IMG/VR virus record: IMGVR_UViG_3300032116_000147
Span: 4,966-68,965 of that record
DNA length: 64,000 nt
DNA from: a virus
Strand: one strand, 5' to 3'
The notes under the pieces were generated by a model that saw only the letters and a program-made list of their open reading frames with translations, was not told where the DNA came from and did not search any database. The position numbers and the translations under genes are program-made. This document shows positions 4,887-62,961 of the stretch, piece by piece (the stretch's first letter is position 1; each line of letters starts with the position of its first letter).

Positions 4887-5111
4887 ATGAATACAAAAGA
4901 TTTATTAGACAAATATTTGGGAAAGAATTCTAGAATTTCAGAAAGAGATACTGGAAACGGTTATAAAGAAGTTTGTGATTTAGACACAGGTGATTGTTAT
5001 ACTGTACGAATGAAAGATGGTTTAATTGAAAGATTTGACCATTCAGTACAAAAATCAAAAAGAATACAAGTAGAAACCACTAAAGGGATTAAACAATTAT
5101 TAAACGGATAA
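4887..5111 (+). CDS. Hypothetical protein, 74 aa
   Basis: ATG 13 nt after the TATTTATA motif; abuts the next gene; CDLDTGDC motif. Confidence 0.75.
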   Translation: MNTKDLLDKYLGKNSRISERDTGNGYKEVCDLDTGDCYTVRMKDGLIERFDHSVQKSKRIQVETTKGIKQLLNG

Positions 5112-5112
5112 A

Positions 5113-5796
5113 ATGAAAATCGATTTACAAATTTTAGAAGAATTAAAAAGATATAATCAAATAAATGATTATATTTTGGAACAAGAAGTAGCTTTACCAC
5201 CAGCTCCTGGTGGGGATGCGGGAGCACCTGTTCCACCACCCGCGGATGCACCTGTAGATGCTGCTGGAGCGGCTGCAACACCACCACCTCCGACACCTAA
5301 TGAATCTCCGGCACCTGTTGATACGAATACTGACCCTGATGTTGAAAAGTTAGATGATGAAGGTAAGTCTGAAGAAAAGAAAGATAAAAAGGGTGAAGAA
5401 ATTGAGATAACCGATTTAGTAAAATCTCAAAAAAATATCGAAGATAAACAAGAAGAATATTTTGATAATTTATTCAAACATTTAGGTGATTTAGAAGATA
5501 AATTATCTAATATGGATAATATTTTAGATAAACTTAATGATTTAGAAAGTAAAATTGAAAAATATAGAGTTAAAACACCACAAGAAAAATTGGAATTAAG
5601 AACGCTAGATTCTGGTCCATATAATCAGAAACTTTCAGATTTTTTTGAAGATAAAGAAGATGACTTTGAAAAAACTGGAAAAAATGAATATGTTTTAACT
5701 CAAAAAGAAATTTCAGATTATTCACCGATTGACATTAAAAAAAGCTTTAGAGATTTTGGTGATGAAAACATGGGTGATTTTGTAAACGTAAGATAA
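5113..5796 (+). CDS. Hypothetical acidic protein with Pro/Ala-rich linker and coiled coil, possibly head-associated
   Basis: 227-aa ORF; leader ILEELKRYNQINDYILEQ, PPAP linker, heptad region; followed by a terminator. Confidence 0.75.
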   Translation: MKIDLQILEELKRYNQINDYILEQEVALPPAPGGDAGAPVPPPADAPVDAAGAAATPPPPTPNESPAPVDTNTDPDVEKLDDEGKSEEKKDKKGEEIEITDLVKSQKNIEDKQEEYFDNLFKHLGDLEDKLSNMDNILDKLNDLESKIEKYRVKTPQEKLELRTLDSGPYNQKLSDFFEDKEDDFEKTGKNEYVLTQKEISDYSPIDIKKSFRDFGDENMGDFVNVR

Positions 5797-32695: not shown

Positions 32696-35140
32696 ATGAT
32701 ATATAAAGTTCAAAATACTGGTACTACTGATTATATTGGTTTTTCATTTGTAGATGAACCGACATCAAATACCAAAGTTATTAATATACAACCGAATTAC
32801 AAATATTTTGTAAATTCTATCTTTGGATTAATTTCTCCATCACCAACTATTGTTGTTGATTTTGTATCAAGTAATAATGATACTTTAATGATTTTTGATT
32901 CATGTTGTGGAAGTGAAAGTTTTTCAATATATGGTTACGATTCAACAACTAATAAGGCGTTAACTCCTTTTACAGGTTTAACAACTAATGAATTTTCTCC
33001 TTTAAATGAATCAATTGCTTTTGAGATAGTAGTATCTTCTGATAATCCAAATACTTATTTAACAGGTTGTTTTGAATATATAGGAACAGGAGAAACATCT
33101 GCGACTACAATACATCCTTTACAATCCGTTGTTGCATTCCCTATTAATAATTTAGATAAGTCAGATAACGTAGATGCAAATTTTATATCTACATGTAGTA
33201 GTTGTATATCTAAATACCCATGTATAGAATCTTTAATATATTTCAAACTATGTTGTGAAGATAATACTAATCCAAATAATAATTTTGCTTTAACAACAAG
33301 TATTGGTACATTTATACCTGGAGAAGTTTACTATGTTTCTACTCCAACTTTTAATTGTTGTGCTGAGGTTATTAGTAGTCCTACTCAGACTATCTATCCA
33401 ATTTATGATGTACCAATAACATATTTTCAGTATAATGGATGTATTGAGTGTCTTGGGTCAAATCAAATTTGTTTTGAAGAAGTTGGAAATGAACCTGAAC
33501 CATTTTATACTGCGGACACACCTTGTGGTGTGGTATATGTGTTAAAAAATGAATGTGAACCAATTACTATTTACCCTGTTGGATTAGATTGTTTTACTAC
33601 AAATATATCTTCTTATGGTTTATCTGATGGTACCGCAACATTGGTTATTTCTGGAGGTACACCACCTTATGTAATTTCTTGGAGTAATACAAATTTTATG
33701 AACGAAAATATAAATCAATATTTATATAATCTCCCACCGGGTACATATCAAGCGACTGTAACTGATTATTATGGTGATTTTACAGAGACTGTTGACTGTG
33801 TGATTCCTGGTATTACACCACCACCTCCTGAGCCAACACCTGAGCCAACACCTGTTCCGATAGTTGGTGATTTTTGTATGACTTTAAAGTCTTCACTAAT
33901 TCATTTTCAAACAAGTGTATTTGTTGATGGAAAACCAAGTTATATTAGTGATAACGGACTTTATAGTATTACATGGTCAGATATAAATCAAAGATGGTCA
34001 TTAAATAATTATACAAGTTCATTTCAGGTATTAAATAATAATCCGGTTTATCCACCAATTACAGGATGGTATTATGTTGGACAAGGCGGTCAACCAATAG
34101 TAGTTGAAGGTCAGTGTTTTTCTACTGAACTTTGTGTGTTTTTTAGTGGAGTTTGTGGTGAAGAATTCATTACTCTAACTGAATCATATGATATAGATGG
34201 AATTCAAACTTGGATTGGTGATTTACCATGTTCTACACCAGGTGATTTTTTAATTTATTTTAATACTACCACTGATAAATGGGAGACAAGTGGTATGACA
34301 AATGTCGTAGGTATTACTGTAGAGGCGGAAATTGATGGTTCACCTATTGGTATTTGGGATGTAAGTTCTAATGAATTTGAATTTTATAGTACCGATGACC
34401 CCTGTGGTAATACAGGTGTTTTAAAAATGAGTATTACCAAAAATAACCCAATTAATGGTTCTGATGGAAACATAGTTATTAATACTGAAGGTGGGGTTTC
34501 ACCTTACACTTATTCTATTGATGGTGGTACATCTTTTAAAAGTGTTCCTATTTTTAATAAACTAAATCCTGGATTATATCCTGTTCAGACTAAAGATGCT
34601 AGTGGTCAAACAGTAAACTCTGTTATTAAATTGAATAATTTACCTTACAAAACAATATATAATGTTTCTTTAAGTACATCATTTGTAATCATTTCAAGTA
34701 CAAGTACTATATTAACAAAAGAATATTATACAAATGTTACAGTTTCACCTCCTATACCTAGCGGTTCAACTTTAACATTTGATTTGGTTCATACTAATGA
34801 TTTTGAAACCTCCCCAAGTTACACTTCTGCAACAATCACAACAAGTAGCGTTCTTACAAAAAATTCTTCAGTAGTTCCAATCACTTCAACATCTTTTGCG
34901 ACAGGTGAAACTTTAAATACTTACATCACTTGTACCTCTTATAATATTTACAGTTCAGCAAATACTGAAAATTGGAATAATATAACTATGTCATATGGAG
35001 ATGTTGTTTTAATAACGACAAATACTACTGTAAATAAAAATGAAAAGGTTTCATGTTATTTGGGACAATCACAAGAATCATATTCAATTGTTAATGTAAA
35101 TATTAGTGGATGTAGTCCTTGTGGTATTTTAGTTACTTAA
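32696..35140 (+). CDS. Cys-rich modular protein with SprB repeats and Pro-rich linker
   Basis: GGTPPYVISWS..LPPGTYQATVTD, GGVSPYTYSIDGG..LNPGLY, PPPEPTPEPTP linker, CC and CxxC modules. Confidence 0.65.
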   Translation: MIYKVQNTGTTDYIGFSFVDEPTSNTKVINIQPNYKYFVNSIFGLISPSPTIVVDFVSSNNDTLMIFDSCCGSESFSIYGYDSTTNKALTPFTGLTTNEFSPLNESIAFEIVVSSDNPNTYLTGCFEYIGTGETSATTIHPLQSVVAFPINNLDKSDNVDANFISTCSSCISKYPCIESLIYFKLCCEDNTNPNNNFALTTSIGTFIPGEVYYVSTPTFNCCAEVISSPTQTIYPIYDVPITYFQYNGCIECLGSNQICFEEVGNEPEPFYTADTPCGVVYVLKNECEPITIYPVGLDCFTTNISSYGLSDGTATLVISGGTPPYVISWSNTNFMNENINQYLYNLPPGTYQATVTDYYGDFTETVDCVIPGITPPPPEPTPEPTPVPIVGDFCMTLKSSLIHFQTSVFVDGKPSYISDNGLYSITWSDINQRWSLNNYTSSFQVLNNNPVYPPITGWYYVGQGGQPIVVEGQCFSTELCVFFSGVCGEEFITLTESYDIDGIQTWIGDLPCSTPGDFLIYFNTTTDKWETSGMTNVVGITVEAEIDGSPIGIWDVSSNEFEFYSTDDPCGNTGVLKMSITKNNPINGSDGNIVINTEGGVSPYTYSIDGGTSFKSVPIFNKLNPGLYPVQTKDASGQTVNSVIKLNNLPYKTIYNVSLSTSFVIISSTSTILTKEYYTNVTVSPPIPSGSTLTFDLVHTNDFETSPSYTSATITTSSVLTKNSSVVPITSTSFATGETLNTYITCTSYNIYSSANTENWNNITMSYGDVVLITTNTTVNKNEKVSCYLGQSQESYSIVNVNISGCSPCGILVT

Positions 35141-49579: not shown

Positions 49580-50086
49580 ATGAAGTATATCTTGTTTTTG
49601 TTCGGTAAAAGTGATAATCAAGAAGTTTTTGTTGAGAAAATCGCGAAGTTTCTGAGTGACTCAATGAGAAGTGATTCCGTTAGATTTTATTTTGGTGATA
49701 CTGCGGCGGTGTTTACGTTTGATACGGATTTAAATTTAAAAAATGTTACATCTAACCTTGATGAATTATTTAGTAATCCTGAAATAATTTATTTCCTTTT
49801 ACCATACACGACTGACAAATTGTCAGTTAAACTTGACTCCATCACAAAAACTCACCTATTTGGCACTGATGATGATATTATTACTGATAATGAATTTTTG
49901 AAAATTCTTAAAGATAGAATCGAAAAAAATCTTATATTTGACGAAGAAGATGAAGACGTTGACCTTTGTTTGACTAACAAAGTAAAAGAGCCGTCACTTG
50001 ATAATATTTTAGATAAAATATCTAACAGTGGTTTATCTTCTTTAAGTGAATATGAAAAAAACCTTTTAAACGAATACTCAAAATAA
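49580..50086 (+). CDS. Hypothetical protein with C-terminal LDxILDKIxxxGxxSL motif (DUF6576-like)
   Basis: LDNILDKISNSGLSSLSEYEKNLL. Confidence 0.65.
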   Translation: MKYILFLFGKSDNQEVFVEKIAKFLSDSMRSDSVRFYFGDTAAVFTFDTDLNLKNVTSNLDELFSNPEIIYFLLPYTTDKLSVKLDSITKTHLFGTDDDIITDNEFLKILKDRIEKNLIFDEEDEDVDLCLTNKVKEPSLDNILDKISNSGLSSLSEYEKNLLNEYSK

Positions 50087-50090
50087 AAAT

Positions 50091-50891
50091 ATGAAACAAA
50101 AAAACTCATCAATACCGATTAACCAAGAAGAAATTCAACATTACTTGAAAGATATTCGTAGAATAAAAGTAATGACTCCTGAACGTGAGAAAGAATTAGC
50201 CAAAATAATACTTGACGGAGACATTTCAGAAAAAGAAAGACAAAAAATTAATAAAGAACTTTTAGAGGGTAACTTACGATTTGTGATAACAGTTGCCAAA
50301 CAATATCAAAATCAAGGTTTAGATTTTCCTGACCTTATTGCTGAAGGTAATTTAGGTTTAATGAAAGCGATACAAAATTTTGATTGGTCAAAAAATCTAA
50401 GATTTATCTCTTACGCTGTTTGGTGGGTTAAGCAATCAATTTTACAATCTTTGAATGATAATTCAAGAACAATTAGATTACCTGTGAATGTTGTTCAAGA
50501 TTTACAAAGAGCTAAGAAAGAAGTTGAAAACAAAGGTGGTAAATTAGAGGATAGGTTTGAAAATTTACCGTCAATTATTGATTTGGACATGTATATCAAT
50601 GAAGAGGGTGATACTTTAGTAGATATACTTAAAAATGAAGGGGCGGATATGCCTGACGCCAATTTTAACAATGAGGATATACTTAAATCAGAATTGATGA
50701 CAATCCTTAATATATTGGATGAAAGAGAAAAGGTTATTATCCAAGATTATTTTGGGATATCAGGTACACCAAGAACATTAGAAGATATCGGTGGTGATTT
50801 TAACTTAACTAAAGAAAGAGTTAGACAGATTAAAGAAAAGGCTCTTCGAAAATTAAGGAATGAGAGTTCAATTTTATTTGACTACTTGTAG
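50091..50891 (+). CDS. RNA polymerase sigma-70 factor (RpoD/RpoH-type, lacking region 1.1)
   Basis: YLKDI, NLRFVITVAKQYQNQG, DLIAEGNLGL, RFISYAVWWVKQSI, RTIRLP, TLEDIG..LTKERVRQIKEKALRKLR. Confidence 0.95.
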   Translation: MKQKNSSIPINQEEIQHYLKDIRRIKVMTPEREKELAKIILDGDISEKERQKINKELLEGNLRFVITVAKQYQNQGLDFPDLIAEGNLGLMKAIQNFDWSKNLRFISYAVWWVKQSILQSLNDNSRTIRLPVNVVQDLQRAKKEVENKGGKLEDRFENLPSIIDLDMYINEEGDTLVDILKNEGADMPDANFNNEDILKSELMTILNILDEREKVIIQDYFGISGTPRTLEDIGGDFNLTKERVRQIKEKALRKLRNESSILFDYL

Positions 50892-50899
50892 AAAAAAGA

Positions 50900-50933
50900 A
50901 AAACCTTCTATTTATTATGATAGAAGGTTTTTT
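50900..50933 (+). terminator. Terminator hairpin with an embedded TATTTAT element
   Basis: AAACCTTCTAT / ATAGAAGGTTT stem with A-rich 5' flank and T-rich 3' flank; TATTTAT at 50909-50915. Confidence 0.8.
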
Positions 50934-50953
50934 ATTTTATAGGAAAAATTATT

Positions 50954-58793: not shown

Positions 58794-59723
58794 ATGAGTA
58801 GTGAAAATTTTTATGATGTTTTAGGTTTGAAAGATACTGCGACACAAGAAGAAATAAAAAAAACTTATAGAAAGTTAGCGGTTGAGAACCATCCTGATAA
58901 GGGCGGAGATGAAGAAAAATTTAAAAAAATTTCAGAGGCGTATGACACTTTAGGTGATGAGGAAAAAAGAAAAAAATATGACAATCAAAAAAATAATCCA
59001 TTTGGTAATTCAGGTGGACATGGTTTTAATCCATTTGACGATTTTTTCAGTAAATTTAATCAACATAATCATGCAAAGTCAGCACCTGAAAAAGTCATTA
59101 ATTTAGAAATAGGTGCTATTGAATCTTATTTAGGTGTTGAAAAAGTTATATCATATGACAGGAAAGTTGAGTGTAATACTTGTTCTGGAAAGGGAGGTGA
59201 AAGAAAAAATTGTCAAAAATGTAATGGTGATGGTTTTATAACTTTAAGAGTTGGTAATGGTATGTTTGTTCAGTTAGTTAGACAAACTTGTGATTTATGT
59301 CAAGGACAAGGTTTTTGGTTAATATCAAAATGTAAAACTTGTAATGGAATTGGTACAAATAATAAAAGCGAAAGCTTTAATATTAAAATACCAAGTAATT
59401 CAGATGACGGTCAATTTTTTAAATTACAAAGTAAAGGAGATTATTACCAAGGGATATATGGTAATTTGATTTTAAGGGTTAAATTAAAATCTGAAAATAA
59501 TTTTGATAAAGTGGGTGATGATTTAATTTATAATGCGTTTTTTAATTTGGAAGAATTAAACAATGAAAGTTTTAAAATTCCACATCCTGACGGTGAACTT
59601 CTTATTAAGTTTCCTGAAGATTTTGATACTTCTAAACCTTTAAGAGTTAAGTCTAAAGGTTATAAAAATCAAAAAATTGGTGACTTGTTTGTTAAAATGT
59701 TTGTTAAATTTAAAAAAACTTAA
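58794..59723 (+). CDS. dnaJ: DnaJ chaperone (J domain, four CxxCxGxG repeats, C-terminal domain)
   Basis: [50 protein letters not shown]. Confidence 0.93.
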
Positions 59724-59880
59724 TCAAATAATTATAAATTATTTCTACGATTTTAACAGTACCATAAATAGATGCTCCAAATATATACGTACCAAAAAAT
59801 AAAAACCAATAATTTTTAATTAACATTTCTTTTGGAGATTTTTTATTACATGTCTTACATTTTTTAGGGTCTTTTTCCAT
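59710..59880 (-). CDS. Small membrane protein with CxxC
   Basis: [14 protein letters not shown] followed by a hydrophobic helix; in-frame ATG at 59880. Confidence 0.55.
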
Positions 59881-59936
59881 AACTTTTTTAAGAAATATTA
59901 ATTTATTTTTTTTAGTAATCAATGTTATTTATATAT

Positions 59937-60338
59937 ATGGAATTATTAAATTCACTAAAGAGTATTTTATTAGAGAAGAAAATTGCTGAACTACAGGACA
60001 TGGTATATATTACCTATTCAATTCAGCACACTGGGGAAAGTAAACACGGTCAATTTAGAAAAAGAAGACATGAAAAAGAAGAAGGTGGGCAAAGGATAAC
60101 TGACTATGATATTTTACAACTTTGTAAGAACGCTAAGAGTGATATTACCCAATATATTGTAATTGGTGAAATCATATCAGGTGTTAGATTCATAGTTACA
60201 CAAAAAGAATATCCTTATCTCAATTTAGTAATTGAACCGACGGAAAATACTCCATATGATTGGGTTTTAACTGTGGTGACTGTAATGAATAATCAGAATT
60301 TTGTTACTGGTTCAAAACAGTTACAAATCTTTGTATAA
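59937..60338 (+). CDS. Hypothetical protein, possible BECR/RelE-fold (DUF4258-like) ribonuclease
   Basis: ATG 4 nt after TATTTAT; SKHGQFRKRRH...ITDYDI and terminal LTVVTVM strand pattern. Confidence 0.5.
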   Translation: MELLNSLKSILLEKKIAELQDMVYITYSIQHTGESKHGQFRKRRHEKEEGGQRITDYDILQLCKNAKSDITQYIVIGEIISGVRFIVTQKEYPYLNLVIEPTENTPYDWVLTVVTVMNNQNFVTGSKQLQIFV

Positions 60339-60339
60339 A

Positions 60340-60485
60340 GAAAAACCCCCGATGTATTCTAACAACGAGGGTTTAAACTTTTTCACTCTATGAGTTGAGG
60401 CTTCCGCCCCTGAACAGCTTCGTGGTTCAGTTCCGCCGAGTTGTGTGGGTAATCTCGGTTCAACCCCTTAATCCAATTGTGACTA
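60340..60485 (-). ncRNA. Putative structured small RNA (four-way junction core 60392-60466)
   Basis: Core is 43/75 GC against an AT-rich background; four stems; TATTTAT upstream (60491-60497, minus) and terminator downstream; no ATG in the unit. Confidence 0.65.
60343..60374 (-). terminator. Intrinsic terminator, probably bidirectional
   Basis: Minus strand AAACCCTCGTTGT-TAGAAT-ACATCGGGGGTTT followed by TTCTTT; the G-U pair favours the minus strand. Confidence 0.7.
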
Positions 60486-60540
60486 CAAATATAAATAGAA
60501 TATCCCGAATAAAAAAATAAAATTTAAACTTTTTTTAATA

Positions 60541-60552: not shown

Positions 60553-60690
60553 ATGAAACAGGAATCACTACCACTTAATCTTCGTCACGTTGCTCAAATT
60601 GTTAGACGGAACATGATTACAAAAGTTGTACCGTCAGGCAAAGAGTATTCCCGTAAGAAGATGAAAAAGGTTGATATCTATCAAGATTAG
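60553..60690 (+). CDS. Small basic protein (45 aa) missing from the ORF track
   Basis: MKQESLPLNLRHVAQIVRRNMITKVVPSGKEYSRKKMKKVDIYQD-TAG after a TAnnTTTG element. Confidence 0.65.
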   Translation: MKQESLPLNLRHVAQIVRRNMITKVVPSGKEYSRKKMKKVDIYQD

Positions 60691-60712
60691 GATTATATTT
60701 TATAAAAAAAGT

Positions 60713-61555
60713 ATGCTTAGTTATATTGGTGGTAAGAGTAAGATTGGTAAATGGATTGTTCCATTCTACCCGACAGATATGGAAACGTATGTTGAAACGT
60801 TTGGTGGTATGTTTTGGTGTTTCTTCAATATGGATTTGAAGTTATATCCTAATTTAAAAAGAGTTGTTTATAACGACTTCAATCCTTTGAACTATAATTT
60901 GTTCATGTGTCTTCAGAATCCTGAGACTTTGTTATCTTCGATTAATAATATTCCATGTCAACAACAAGGTGTAGAAGTAACACCACCGGTATATAAAGAA
61001 CAGTTCAACGCATTTCAAAAGGAAATCTTCTCTGAAGGTTTCACAATCAATTATCCTGATTATGATGTGGCGGCTAAATATGCTTATGTTCTAACACAGG
61101 TATTTAGTGGGTCAAAACCTGAAACAAGTTCATTCATTGATTTGAAGGGTAAGTATAAATCAAAATATCTTACATTTAGAGATAAGTTGTCTAAACCTGA
61201 TTGGGTGGAACATTTCAATAAGATATCACATTTTAGACTGGGTGATTTTGAGGATGTAATTAAAGAGTTTGATAGTCCTACAACATATTTTTATGTTGAC
61301 CCACCTTATTGGAAAACTGAGAATTACTATTCAAACCACGATTTTGACAGAAATGACCATGAAAGATTGGCAAATTGTTTAAAAAATATTAAAGGAAAGT
61401 TTTCATTATCTTATTACGATTTCGTACTTTTGAGAGAGTGGTTTCCAACTGAAGAATACAGATGGGAAAAGAAAGAATTTGCTAAAGCCGCAGCGGCAAA
61501 GAAAGGTAAAACCCAAAATATGGGTGAGGAGTTATTAATTATGAATTATTTTTAA
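60713..61555 (+). CDS. DNA adenine methyltransferase, D12/Dam family
   Basis: YIGGKS, YVETFGG, YNDFN, FYVDPPY, ELLIMNY; ATG at 60713 follows TTGATA-17-TATATT (60671-60699). Confidence 0.9.
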   Translation: MLSYIGGKSKIGKWIVPFYPTDMETYVETFGGMFWCFFNMDLKLYPNLKRVVYNDFNPLNYNLFMCLQNPETLLSSINNIPCQQQGVEVTPPVYKEQFNAFQKEIFSEGFTINYPDYDVAAKYAYVLTQVFSGSKPETSSFIDLKGKYKSKYLTFRDKLSKPDWVEHFNKISHFRLGDFEDVIKEFDSPTTYFYVDPPYWKTENYYSNHDFDRNDHERLANCLKNIKGKFSLSYYDFVLLREWFPTEEYRWEKKEFAKAAAAKKGKTQNMGEELLIMNYF

Positions 61556-61584
61556 TTTTTTTGATATTTATAAAGAAAAAAACA

Positions 61585-62961
61585 ATGAGAGGATTTACAC
61601 AACTTTTATCAAATTTAATTTTAGAGAACTCAAGATTTCAAATTTTATATGACAAATTAGTTAAACCATCAGCTAAACCTGCTCAAGGTGCTGAAGGTAG
61701 AAGAGCTAAAGGTATCATGGATTTTGAAACTTTAAAAGCGATTATATTTGCTGACCCAACAACAAGAATGCCTGAAGGATTGGGTGATATTGATGAAATC
61801 AGTATTCAGGATATGGATAAAGTTAAAGTTGGTAAGTATACTCAGTGGTTATTAAAGAATTTCTTAACACCATCATTTAATGATGAAAGAGCGGATGTTG
61901 AAGTTGGCTCACCTGAATATAAACAATTGGCTAAAAGATATCGTGATTTATACCTTGAGGATTTATACAAGGTTACCGACGACTTAAAGAAGTTTGAGAG
62001 ATTTAAAAATCAATTACCTCAAGATAAGAGGGATATTAATAAAATCACAGTTAGTGAATTATTTGATTTAGTTAAAGATTTTAAACTTGAAAAAGTTAAA
62101 GCGTCTAAAGAGGAAAAAGAAAAGGCTAAAATTTCTTATGAATATCCTGGTAGTGAAATTATTTTCAGAGGTCCAAAATGGACTTTGGTTAAAATTGAAG
62201 ATAAAGGAGAATTAGGGAAAAATGCGGCAATATTCTTTGGAGGTTATCAAGATGGTGATAACGATGAAACAAGATGGTGTACATCAGCACCTGGATTGAC
62301 GTTCTTCAATGGTTATATTAAAGACGGTCCTCTTTATGTTGTATTACCAAATGACGATAATGGAAAAGTTGGAAAAAGAACTGGATTACCTAAAGAAAGA
62401 TATCAATTCCATTTCCCATCAAGTCAATTTATGGATAGAGAAGATAGACATGTAAATTTAACTGAACTTTTAAATGGACCAATGATTGAACTTAAAGAAA
62501 GTTTTAAACCTGAATTTGCTAAAGGATTGGTTACTAAAGGTGGTGATAAAGTTGAGATTAACTATCCTAACGATTCAGCGGGTAAATTTGTAGCTCTTTA
62601 TGGATTTGATGAACTTTTTGAATCTATGCCAAAAACGATACAACATTTATTAATTAACAATAAATCTAAAGAAAATATTGCGATAGACGTTCCTGAAAGT
62701 TTGGGTCAGTTTACTAACTTACAAGCATTGATGTTACAAAATATTGTTAGAACTTTACCTGAGTCAATCGGTAACTTGAAAGGACTTAACTTCTTAGCGT
62801 TACCATCTAATTCTAATCTACAGAGTTTACCAGCCTCTATTGTTAATTTAGAGAATTTAGCATTTATTAATTTGAAAGATAGTAACCCGAACATTGAAAT
62901 ACCTGAAGTATTAAGAGAAAAATTGAGTGATGAGGGTGGTGGATTTTATTATGTGATTTAA
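61585..62961 (+). CDS. Jumbo-phage TxWCT-domain protein with C-terminal leucine-rich repeats
   Basis: KYTQWLLK, EDLYK, KRDIN, TRWCTSA, GPLY, YQFHF..QFMD; LRRs VPESLGQFTNLQAL, LPESIGNLKGLNFL, LPASIVNLENL; ATG 61585 after TATTTATA. Confidence 0.7.
   Translation: MRGFTQLLSNLILENSRFQILYDKLVKPSAKPAQGAEGRRAKGIMDFETLKAIIFADPTTRMPEGLGDIDEISIQDMDKVKVGKYTQWLLKNFLTPSFNDERADVEVGSPEYKQLAKRYRDLYLEDLYKVTDDLKKFERFKNQLPQDKRDINKITVSELFDLVKDFKLEKVKASKEEKEKAKISYEYPGSEIIFRGPKWTLVKIEDKGELGKNAAIFFGGYQDGDNDETRWCTSAPGLTFFNGYIKDGPLYVVLPNDDNGKVGKRTGLPKERYQFHFPSSQFMDREDRHVNLTELLNGPMIELKESFKPEFAKGLVTKGGDKVEINYPNDSAGKFVALYGFDELFESMPKTIQHLLINNKSKENIAIDVPESLGQFTNLQALMLQNIVRTLPESIGNLKGLNFLALPSNSNLQSLPASIVNLENLAFINLKDSNPNIEIPEVLREKLSDEGGGFYYVI

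What the first reader, a model, noticed from the sequence alone, without database searches (positions are those of the whole stretch)
60340..60497. Stand-alone tRNA-sized four-way-junction RNA with its own promoter motif and terminator
Seen: on the minus strand, TATTTAT (60497-60491) precedes an ATG-free unit whose 75-nt core is 57% GC (43/75) in an AT-rich genome. It folds as a closing 7-bp stem GGGUUGA/UCAACUC (one G-U) around three hairpins: CCGAG/CUCGG, CUGAAC/GUUCAG and GGC-GGAA-GCC (GNRA tetraloop). GGCGGAA occurs twice. An intrinsic terminator follows (60374-60343). It has tRNA length and an acceptor-like stem but no canonical D or T loop, and matches no RNA family I recognise. Inference: a phage-encoded structured ncRNA, possibly a tRNA mimic or decoy, a protein sponge using the GGAA motifs, or a partner of the convergent putative RNase.
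Basis: partly seen in the sequence, partly recalled or inferred. Interest (0 to 1): 0.85.

Follow-up and report, generated by a model that had tools for sequence, protein, structure and literature searches.

The report
New pseudoknotted small RNA in lake phages
A short, folded, strongly conserved RNA gene with its own start and stop signals sits in this giant lake-phage genome and in about a hundred relatives; it matches no known RNA family and its job is still unknown.

Summary
Window 60340-60497 (minus strand) carries an ORF-free, 57% GC island with the stated hairpins and a terminator. It is the only intergenic GC island in a 29% GC window. Fold energy alone is not significant (z about -1.5), but comparison settles it. 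The element belongs to a family of 86 distinct sequences in about 30% GC phage contigs, with one copy in each of four records searched whole. Two hairpins covary strongly. No tRNA or Rfam hit, and no match in GenBank phages or the cellular genomes searched.

The fold needs revising. The outer three pairs of the "7-bp closing stem" compete with a covarying extra hairpin. The 5' GGGU instead pairs with ACCC in the first hairpin loop, a pseudoknot with one covarying pair.

A third of loci carry a Bacteroidota-type promoter (TAnnTTTG; TATATTTG at 60493-60486 here). In most relatives the RNA lies just downstream of a phage sigma-70 gene and ends at the terminator. Half have the convergent 140-aa protein, which is weakly RelE-like. 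RNA and protein each occur without the other.

Best reading: a new phage small RNA that binds a partner through an invariant 36-nt pseudoknot domain. Function unproven and no expression data. First readers flagged the same RNA in another genome.

The parts
60486..60493 (-). Promoter -7 box TATATTTG (Bacteroidota-type TAnnTTTG). The predicted start is a few nt downstream, about 60480.
   Evidence: Sequence. TAnnTTTG lies within 30 nt upstream in 31 of 91 distinct family upstream regions, against 55 of 1820 random positions. Consensus read in passages of PMC7641319. The start site itself is not mapped.
60459..60467 (-). 5' strand G-GGGU-UG-AA. GGGU (60466-60463) is the 5' strand of the pseudoknot. 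UUG (60463-60461) is the short closing helix P1. AA is a linker.
   Evidence: GGG:CCC and U:A are invariant. The flanking pair N-1:X1 covaries in the family: AU 35, UA 33, unpaired 18 of 86. In this window that pair is a G-A mismatch.
60436..60458 (-). Hairpin P2: CCGAG, the 13-nt loop AUUACCCACACAA, then CUCGG. Loop ACCC (60450-60447) is the 3' strand of the pseudoknot.
   Evidence: Invariant in all 86 distinct sequences. Patterns that left the stem free found no variants.
60431..60435 (-). Invariant junction CGGAA
   Evidence: It was partly fixed by the search pattern.
60410..60430 (-). Hairpin P3: CUGAAC, loop CACGAAGCU, GUUCAG
   Evidence: 5 of 5 modelled pairs show changes on both sides across the family.
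60398..60409 (-). Hairpin P4: GGGC-GGAA-GCCU. The main family has RGG-UGAAAAU-CCY.
   Evidence: The outer pair varies as AU 38, GU 31, GC 15. The loop is not conserved between subgroups.
60395..60397 (-). CAA, the 3' strand of the short closing helix P1
   Evidence: Near-invariant: UA 85 and UG 1 at one pair, GC 86 at the other. There is no covariation, so P1 is neither shown nor refuted.
60386..60394 (-). Hairpin P5: CUC-AUA-GAG (7 bp in the main family).
   Evidence: 6 of 7 modelled pairs change on both sides. The first three pairs read UA/CG, UA/CG and UA/CG/AU.
60375..60385 (-). Single-stranded linker UGAAAAAGUUU. UGAAR is conserved family-wide.
60334..60374 (-). Intrinsic terminator: hairpin 60374-60343 followed by UUUUUCUUU
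   Evidence: -15.6 kcal/mol, z -4.45. Every main-family member I inspected has a covarying hairpin plus U-run here. The L140 subgroup has it about 60 nt further on. The simple consensus scan did not call it.
59922..60338 (+). Convergent 138-aa ORF, which ends 4 nt before the terminator hairpin. A frequent but optional neighbour of the RNA.
   Evidence: Homologues lie convergent to the RNA in 60 of 112 loci and are aligned in A5. No Pfam or PHROG family. Weak RelE/ParE/CdiA-CT/RegB-like fold, Z 3.4-5.0.

Best explanation
This is a gene for a small non-coding RNA of about 140 nt, encoded by a giant freshwater phage that probably infects Bacteroidota.

Shown:
- It is a conserved family, present as one copy in each of the four virus records searched whole.
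- It lies on the minus strand.
- It comprises an invariant 36-nt 5' domain (GGGUUGAA, the CCGAG/CUCGG hairpin, then CGGAA), three variable but covarying hairpins, a short linker and an intrinsic terminator.
- The 5' GGGU pairs with ACCC in the first hairpin's loop, forming an H-type pseudoknot.

Inferred:
- It is transcribed from a TAnnTTTG-type promoter here. In most relatives it forms the 3' end of the phage sigma-70 transcript.
- It is released at the terminator and acts in trans.
- The invariant pseudoknot domain is a specific docking surface for a conserved protein or RNA partner. The variable hairpins serve as scaffold, and the terminator hairpin gives the 3' end and stability.
- It is an accessory function, because close relatives lack it. 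It most likely belongs to the early regulatory or host-takeover module next to the sigma gene.
For: No known family:
- ARAGORN finds 0 genes.
- Rfam finds 0 of 4227 families at gathering score.
- Only sub-threshold, mutually inconsistent hits appear for three family members.

Size and distribution of the family:
- 67 of 72 IMG/VR pattern hits are members.
- A metagenome scan added 115 stretches.
- All 88 representative loci score E<=1e-4 with model R1.
- There is one match in each of the 4 records searched whole, two of them 93-100% complete, and one match in the window with filters off.

Structure (86 distinct sequences):
- 94.1% of cells pair, against 41-53% when partners are slid.
- The covariation score is 0.274, against 0.05-0.07.
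- P3 has 5 of 5 pairs and P5 has 6 of 7 pairs changed on both sides.
- The pseudoknot pair reads AU 35, UA 33, unpaired 18.
- Its two columns were unpaired in the model and unspecified in the search patterns, so they were not fitted to the result.
- Both pair types occur within 4 of 32 hairpin haplotypes.
- Many G-U pairs fix the strand.

Transcription unit:
- The promoter motif is enriched: 31 of 91 against 55 of 1820, and the bipartite form 16 of 91 against 7 of 1820.
- The terminator has z -4.45.
- There is no ATG.
- The gene downstream is convergent, so there is nothing to regulate in cis here.

Constraint: the 36-nt domain is identical between this window and main-family members such as L139 and L186. 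Their sigma proteins are 68-76% identical.

Context: sigma-70 lies upstream on the same strand in 64 of 76 loci.
Against: - No expression evidence of any kind could be obtained.
- The partner is unknown.
- Invariance of P1 and P2 is partly by construction, since members were collected with patterns fixed on that domain. Those helices therefore have no covariation support.
- In about two thirds of loci there is no recognisable own promoter and the RNA abuts the stop codon of the upstream ORF. It may then function as part of the mRNA rather than as a free RNA.
- Only one pseudoknot pair varies, and 18 of 86 sequences, including this window, mismatch there.
- Five complete relatives lack the RNA, so it is dispensable.
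Confidence: 0.45

Rival explanations
1. A cis-acting transcription element. The folded RNA controls the terminator just downstream, either as a riboswitch-like attenuator or as a put-like element that makes RNA polymerase read through. It would gate transcription from the sigma-70 operon into the genes beyond.
For: - It is always followed by an intrinsic terminator.
- In the main family it lies between the sigma operon and same-strand downstream genes of about 400 aa and about 198 aa.
- In this window the sigma gene is followed by a plain terminator, as if the RNA core were an insert upstream of a terminator.
- The three nt after CAA can pair either with the 5' GGG (97% of cells) or within P5. 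That is a possible switch.
- The near-total conservation of the 5' domain resembles an aptamer.
Against: - In this window, and in 60 of 112 loci, the next gene is convergent. Read-through would only make antisense RNA.
- I saw no alternative pairing between the core and the terminator's 5' strand. This was by inspection, not by a formal test.
- About a third of loci give the RNA a promoter of its own, which suits a gene better than a leader.
- No known riboswitch family matches.
Confidence: 0.2
2. An RNA partner of the convergent 140-aa protein. It could be an antitoxin-like inhibitor, a decoy substrate or a guide for a RelE/RegB-like endoribonuclease. The two would travel as a two-gene cassette sharing a bidirectional terminator.
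For: - The protein family lies convergent to the RNA, directly behind the terminator, in 60 of 112 loci.
- The pair stays together in two different genomic settings: beside the sigma gene in the main family, and 10 kb from it here.
- The AlphaFold model (pLDDT 73.5) gives its best small-domain matches to RelE, ParE, HigB2, a CdiA-CT nuclease and T4 RegB.
- H42, R49, E18, T120 and Q133 are invariant.
Against: - The fold matches are weak: Foldseek E>0.1 and Z 3.4-5.0, a range the tool says is common for unrelated chains.
- There is no Pfam, PHROG or PDB-sequence support.
- Genome G002, 93% complete, has the RNA but no such protein.
- Complete genome G156 has the protein but no RNA, and none lies beside it.
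- There are no tandem repeats as in type III antitoxins, and the orientation is convergent rather than co-directional.
Confidence: 0.12
3. A 5'-end-protecting or processing structure. The pseudoknot that ties up the 5' end would stall 5'-to-3' decay, or would mark a processing site. A stable fragment would then accumulate from the 3' end of the sigma mRNA, by analogy with exonuclease-resistant RNAs or tRNA-like punctuation.
For: - In 19 of the 64 sigma-linked loci the RNA starts within 19 nt of the sigma stop codon, with no promoter of its own.
- The very first nucleotides take part in the pseudoknot.
- The closing helix P1 would ring the chain around that strand (inference).
Against: - This is purely topological reasoning, with no 3D model and no decay data.
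- Own-promoter copies such as this window's do not need processing.
- No tRNA features were found.
- Whether the presumed hosts have a 5' exonuclease was not checked.
Confidence: 0.1
4. A tRNA mimic or decoy.
For: The core is tRNA-sized and its nested minimum-energy fold is a four-way junction. A 2-nt linker follows the closing helix, and the third hairpin stacks directly on that helix.
Against: - ARAGORN finds 0, and no tRNA, tmRNA or tRNA-like Rfam hit appears even at E<=10.
- The loops are 13, 9 and 4 nt here.
- The would-be T-loop is not conserved.
- Half of the acceptor-like stem is used elsewhere.
Confidence: 0.04
5. No RNA function: a chance GC island, or a DNA-level site.
For: The folding energy is not significant, and no transcript evidence exists.
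Against: Compensatory changes occur in three helices, and G-U pairs hold on one strand only. The element is conserved well above its flanking DNA.
Confidence: 0.03

Closest known systems
tRNA and tRNA-like structures
   Same: The core has similar length, the nested fold is a four-way junction, and it is a GC island in an AT-rich phage genome.
   Different: It is not detected by ARAGORN or Rfam. There are no D, anticodon or T loop signatures. Comparative data put half of the 'acceptor' stem into a pseudoknot and an extra hairpin.
Phage-encoded small stable RNAs of unknown role, such as the T4 small RNAs C and D (recalled, not checked here)
   Same: A short, stable-looking, structured RNA encoded by a large lytic phage, with no ORF and a dispensable character.
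   Different: There is no sequence or family relation. This one has a defined pseudoknot domain and lies beside a sigma-70 gene in most relatives.
Type III toxin-antitoxin RNAs (ToxI/ToxN type; recalled)
   Same: A pseudoknotted RNA next to a small putative endoribonuclease gene, separated from it by a terminator, in a phage setting.
   Different: There are no tandem repeats. The orientation is convergent. The protein is not ToxN-like in Pfam. RNA and protein each occur alone.
RNAs that act on RNA polymerase: 6S RNA and the HK022 put RNA (recalled)
   Same: It is linked to the transcription module, with sigma-70 upstream in 64 of 76 loci. Like put, it is placed just before a terminator.
   Different: No 6S hit in Rfam. 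The architecture is not a 6S-like bulged duplex. Binding to polymerase is untested.
Riboswitch aptamers with H-type pseudoknots (SAM-II/V, preQ1, guanidine-III; recalled)
   Same: A small, almost invariant pseudoknot domain followed by a terminator.
   Different: No Rfam match. There is no downstream same-strand gene here. No antiterminator was seen.

Membership tests
tRNA / tmRNA | Recognised by a tRNA/tmRNA gene finder | tested here: not met
   ARAGORN finds 0 genes in the whole window.
tRNA / tmRNA | Conserved D-loop and T-loop and a 7-nt anticodon loop | tested here: not met
   The loops are 13, 9 and 4 nt here. The third loop differs between subgroups: UGAAAAU, GGAA, KUGGUAA.
tRNA / tmRNA | 7-bp acceptor stem closing the junction | tested here: inconclusive
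   UUG/CAA is near-invariant. The outer GGG:YYN is compatible (97% paired, changes on one side only). It competes with the covarying P5 and with the pseudoknot.
Any Rfam 15 family | Score at or above the family's gathering threshold | tested here: not met
   0 matches in the window. The best sub-threshold hit is 25.2 bits against 50, and it lies on the terminator. No family is shared among the window, L129 and L140.
Stand-alone bacterial-type small RNA gene | Own promoter | tested here: met
   TATATTTG lies at 60493-60486. The motif is enriched upstream of family members: 31 of 91 against 55 of 1820. The sigma-70 TTGACA/TATAAT scan found none. The consensus was read in PMC7641319. Use of the promoter is not shown.
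Stand-alone bacterial-type small RNA gene | Intrinsic terminator and no ORF | tested here: met
Stand-alone bacterial-type small RNA gene | A discrete transcript | not testable with these tools
   No RNA holder was listed. The laid runs were contigs only.
H-type pseudoknot | Loop nucleotides of one hairpin pair with a strand outside it, supported by covariation | tested here: met
   GGGU:ACCC is invariant. The flanking pair reads AU 35, UA 33, unpaired 18 of 86. Support rests on one varying pair only.
Riboswitch / cis leader | A regulated gene downstream on the same strand | tested here: not met
   In the window the next gene is convergent, as in 60 of 112 loci. The feature is met in the other loci.
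Riboswitch / cis leader | Mutually exclusive terminator and antiterminator pairing | tested here: inconclusive
   None was seen by inspecting. There was no formal search. An alternative GGG:YYN pairing against P5 exists.
Type III toxin-antitoxin (ToxIN-like) | Antitoxin made of tandem RNA repeats, co-directional with the toxin gene | tested here: not met
   No tandem repeat. The gene is convergent.
RelE/ParE (BECR) ribonuclease fold, for the 138-aa neighbour | Fold match to solved members | tested here: inconclusive
   VIA-align gives CdiA-CT Z 5.0, RelE 4.3 and 4.1, ParE 4.1 and RegB 3.4. Foldseek gives HigB2 at E 0.15. There is no sequence-level support.
RelE/ParE (BECR) ribonuclease fold, for the 138-aa neighbour | Catalytic residues placed as in known members | not tested
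   The invariant residues H42, R49, E18, T120 and Q133 were noted but not superposed.

The most novel reading that the evidence does not exclude
The RNA is a new class of phage RNA that acts directly on the transcription machinery. It might dock on the host's primary-sigma holoenzyme or core polymerase and so favour the phage's own sigma-70. Alternatively it might ride with the polymerase and alter termination. Either would explain why it is inserted between the phage sigma-70 gene and its terminator in most relatives, and why its 36-nt pseudoknot domain is frozen in sequence.
Probability: 0.12. Interest if true: 0.9.

Novelty: new variant of a known kind. Interest (0 to 1): 0.68.

Why it matters
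Almost nothing is known about non-coding RNAs of giant phages that infect Bacteroidota. These hosts lack Hfq-type small-RNA biology and Shine-Dalgarno-led translation (recalled).

This finding offers a well-defined new RNA family:
- 86 distinct sequences, and one copy in each of the four records searched whole;
- a 36-nt domain identical between phages whose sigma proteins are 68-76% identical;
- a supported pseudoknot and clear borders;
- patchy, accessory distribution, and frequent linkage to the phage sigma factor and to a small RelE-like protein.

That combination is typical of host-takeover or counter-defence functions, and it gives a concrete object for structure probing and partner hunting.

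If the RNA binds polymerase, a nuclease or a host defence protein, it would be a new mechanism. If it is only a stabilising 3' end, it is still a new fold. The promoter motif also gives an independent pointer to the host phylum for an uncultured phage lineage.

Tried and rejected
Expression. The look-up of sequencing runs listed no RNA holder. Read laying on X1-X4 used contigs only. One 157-nt contig of X1 covers 60330-60486 with no differences. However, the library is flagged as probably DNA, and short contigs break where strains differ. I draw nothing from it, nor from the empty runs X3 and X4.

Searches for more divergent members. Patterns with the P2 stem left free gave 65 known loci and no new ones. 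A looser pattern gave 12 new loci, and 0 of 12 are members. Of 328 IMG/VR sigma relatives the best 80 were kept, and the RNA lies within 2.5 kb in 1 of 80. It was found in 0 of 5 complete related genomes.

Cellular and reference collections. The genome-contig scan gave 85 stretches, none family-like. Model R1 found the RNA in 0 of 151 genomes sampled from the phylum of handle G005, whose record title says Cytophagales. GenBank phages gave no blastn match. These mean 'not found in what was searched', not 'absent'.

Other checks that led nowhere.
- The complement of the P2 loop has 5 matches in the window against 3.3 expected, so no target emerges.
- TATATTTGTA is not enriched window-wide: 34 against 28.3.
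- The weak R1 hit at 49910-49989 (14.8 bits) lies in coding sequence.
- The simple promoter and terminator scan called neither element.
- For the 138-aa protein, Pfam, PHROGs and PDB sequences gave nothing. The Atlas gave only a 0.83 lead to DUF4258.
- I did not run complex prediction, because an RNA partner cannot be tested there.

Literature. Four searches turned up no description of this RNA. A fifth was rejected for its wording. I saw passages of PMC7641319 on the -7 box. I also saw passages of PMC12619734 on 'moraphages': large freshwater phages with DnaJ and a sigma factor, predicted Bacteroidota hosts, and no occurrence of the word 'noncoding'. Whether this window belongs to that lineage was not tested. 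All other papers were seen as search listings only. Supplements were not opened and could hold RNA annotations.

Rows left out. Three truncated loci (L142, L163, L189) were dropped from the 145-nt set that gave A2, and L142 and L163 from A3. Identical sequences were collapsed, 67 to 42. A7 uses 88 representatives of the 189 loci that carry the pattern. Context counts use only loci with enough flank: 76 and 112 of 131.
Full report
THE OBSERVATION. On the minus strand of 60340-60497 the sequence reads TATTTATATTTGTAGTCACAATTGGATTAAG, then a 75-nt core, then CATAGAGTGAAAAAGTTT, then a hairpin with a U-run. The core lies at 60392-60466 and has 43 of 75 G+C. The unit holds no ATG. GGCGGAA occurs at 60437-60431 and 60408-60402, and all the stated stems are present. 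The energy is unremarkable: z is -1.42 for 158 nt and -1.48 for the 83-nt core. The opposite strand folds about as well, but into a different shape. Energy alone therefore proves nothing. Composition is more telling. The window is 29.4% GC, and only three places reach 52% GC over 75 nt. The other two lie inside long ORFs. The terminator is strong on the minus strand: -15.6 kcal/mol, z -4.45, followed by UUUUUCUUU. On the plus strand it is weaker at -11.4 with a poor U-tract.

NOT A KNOWN RNA. ARAGORN finds no tRNA or tmRNA in the window. Rfam 15 gives nothing at gathering score. At E<=10 there are only weak hits, mostly laid on the terminator; the best is 25.2 bits against a threshold of 50. 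Two other family members give different weak hits, and none is shared. GenBank phage records hold nothing similar. Four literature searches found no description.

A FAMILY. The window is part of a 68,965-base IMG/VR virus record judged 23% complete, and the element occurs once in it. Close relatives are L004 and the pair L007/L008, on contigs of 185 and 294 kb. They keep the RNA and its neighbours. The pattern TGAACCGAG-N8-30-CTCGGCGGAA then hit 72 IMG/VR stretches. Of these, 67 are clearly the same element in contigs of about 30% GC, and the other 5 are GC-rich and unrelated. The same domain hit 115 metagenome stretches. In all, 189 loci carry the pattern, in 131 non-redundant contexts. A covariance model built from 42 distinct sequences finds one copy in each of four virus records. 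These include a 294-kb record rated 100% complete and a 273-kb record rated 93%. All 88 representative loci match at E<=1e-4. The five GC-rich controls did not match.

STRUCTURE FROM COMPARISON. On 86 distinct sequences (alignment A7), 94.1% of cells form standard pairs. When the 3' partners are slid by 1-3 columns the figure drops to 41-53%. The covariation score is 0.274 against 0.05-0.07, and 0 of 500 column shuffles reach it.
- Hairpin P3 (CUGAAC/GUUCAG in the window) has changes on both sides at 5 of 5 modelled pairs.
- The small third hairpin P4 varies at its outer pair: AU 38, GU 31, GC 15.
- A further hairpin, P5, lies directly after CAA. In the window it is CUC-AUA-GAG.
- The extended closing stem (GGG with those three nucleotides) remains possible, with 97% of cells paired. 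It shows only one-sided changes.
- RNAfold on longer stretches kept pairing the 5' end with the loop of P2. I therefore tested GGGU:ACCC as a pseudoknot. Those four pairs are essentially invariant. The next pair joins the base before GGG to the base after ACCC, and it reads A-U in 35 sequences, U-A in 33 and is unpaired in 18 of 86. On the IMG/VR set alone it reads 23, 13 and 6 of 42.
- These two columns were unpaired in the model and were not specified in any search pattern, so the result was not fitted.
- Both pair types occur within 4 of 32 combinations of P3 and P5 sequence, which argues for repeated change rather than one split.
- The window itself has a G-A mismatch at that pair, leaving four pseudoknot pairs.
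- P1 (UUG/CAA) and P2 (CCGAG/CUCGG) never vary, so comparison cannot speak for or against them. Their invariance is partly a result of how members were collected. Patterns that freed the P2 stem found no variants.
- My model is a compact pseudoknotted junction. The continuous 5' strand N-GGGU-UG pairs first with the P2 loop and then with CAA, with P2, P3 and P4 in the ring. P5, a UGAAR linker and the terminator follow.
- Abundant G-U pairs fix the strand as the minus strand.

PROMOTER AND HOST. TATATTTG (60493-60486) fits TAnnTTTG. This is the -7 box described as conserved in Flavobacterium and Bacteroides (passages of PMC7641319). A first-reader note on a related genome used the same term. 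Among 91 distinct upstream regions, 31 have TAnnTTTG ending within 30 nt of GGG, against 55 of 1820 random positions in the same loci. The bipartite TTTG-N17-23-TAnnTTTG occurs in 16 of 91 against 7 of 1820. A classical TTGACA/TATAAT scan finds nothing here. So about a third of the loci, this window included, have a plausible promoter of their own. In the rest the RNA begins a few bases after the stop codon of the upstream ORF. The motif points to Bacteroidota hosts. A recently described lineage of large freshwater phages with DnaJ, a sigma factor and predicted Flavobacteriia hosts looks similar (passages of PMC12619734). I did not test membership.

NEIGHBOURS. In 64 of 76 loci with enough upstream flank, an RpoD-like sigma-70 gene lies upstream on the same strand. 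In 19 of those it ends within 19 nt of the RNA. In this window the sigma gene is at 50091-50888, 10 kb away, and is followed by a plain terminator. Downstream, 60 of 112 loci carry a convergent gene of about 140 aa whose stop lies just behind the terminator. The window's 59922-60338 is one of these. That protein has no Pfam, PHROG or PDB-sequence match. Its AlphaFold model (pLDDT 73.5) resembles RelE, ParE, HigB2, a CdiA-CT nuclease and T4 RegB only weakly, at Z 3.4-5.0 and Foldseek E>0.1. The 'RNase' label is therefore a lead, not a result. The pairing is not obligatory. G002 has the RNA without the protein. G156 has the protein without the RNA.

DISTRIBUTION. The RNA is accessory. Among the 80 closest sigma loci it lies within 2.5 kb in 1 of 80. 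Five complete relatives of 304-322 kb have no match at all. It was not found in 85 pattern hits from 185,579 species genomes. It was also not found in 151 genomes sampled from the phylum of handle G005, whose record title says Cytophagales.

WHAT IT MOST LIKELY IS.
Shown: a conserved, structured, ORF-free RNA element on the minus strand, present once in each record searched whole, with a pseudoknot and a terminator.
Inferred: it is made as a free RNA of about 140 nt and works in trans through its invariant 36-nt domain. That domain is identical between this window and main-family members whose sigma proteins are 68-76% identical. Such conservation fits a docking surface for a conserved partner better than a mere scaffold. 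I put this at 0.45.

The rivals are:
- a cis-acting termination-control element (0.20). It is favoured by the position before a terminator and by the alternative pairing. It is disfavoured by the convergent downstream gene and the RNA's own promoter.
- a partner of the RelE-like protein (0.12);
- a decay-blocking or processing structure (0.10);
- a tRNA mimic (0.04);
- no function (0.03).

No expression evidence could be had.

NOVELTY. The element is not a member of any described RNA family that I could test. As a kind, a phage-encoded structured small RNA with promoter and terminator, it is familiar. What is new is the fold, the frozen pseudoknot domain, and the setting in Bacteroidota giant phages beside their sigma factor.

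Noticed in passing
window 60553-60690 (+): A 45-aa, very basic ORF (MKQESLPLNLRHVAQIVRRN...) lies between the RNA's promoter region and the methyltransferase gene. It is conserved in L007 at 4893-5030. It has no Pfam or PHROG family.
   Followed up: partly
window 60671-61555 (+): A D12-class N6-adenine DNA methyltransferase (Pfam E 6e-19). The listed TTG start at 60671 is probably too early. Relatives start at the ATG that gives MLSYIGGK (60713).
   Followed up: partly
window 59710-59922 (-): A 70-aa ORF on the RNA's strand, just beyond the convergent 138-aa gene. It has a CxxC motif and a hydrophobic tail. A 51-aa counterpart is conserved in L007 (4058-4213). Read-through from the RNA unit would reach it.
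   Followed up: no
window 50091-50888 (+), and 50889-50940: A phage RpoD-like sigma-70 gene, 76% identical to the main-family protein that precedes the RNA there. Here it is followed directly by a plain hairpin/U-run terminator with no RNA core.
   Followed up: partly
window 58794-59723 (+): A full-length DnaJ homologue with J domain, CXXCXGXG zinc domain and C-terminal domain, encoded by the phage.
   Followed up: no
window 61561-62961 (+): A 466-aa protein with C-terminal leucine-rich repeats (weak Pfam LRR hits). It is conserved in L007.
   Followed up: no
window 5167-5345 and 33783-33870: The only other GC-rich islands in the window. Both lie inside ORFs. The first encodes a Pro/Ala/Gly-rich low-complexity stretch of a 227-aa protein.
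   Followed up: partly
L140, L157, L184 (RNA plus about 60 nt): A subgroup of the family carries an extra segment of about 60 nt between hairpin P5 and the terminator. It also has a different third-hairpin loop (KUGGUAA).
   Followed up: partly
L384 1501-2578 (genome G156): In a complete 321-kb relative that lacks the RNA, the 140-aa protein homologue sits after a large structural-looking gene. It sits before an ORF with a GHLAPAADF motif, which I recall from DNA/RNA non-specific endonucleases.
   Followed up: no
window 60330-60486: A 157-nt contig of coded run X1 matches exactly this span with no differences. The library is labelled RNA-Seq but the tool flags it as probably DNA. This may only reflect assembly breaks at variable flanks.
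   Followed up: no
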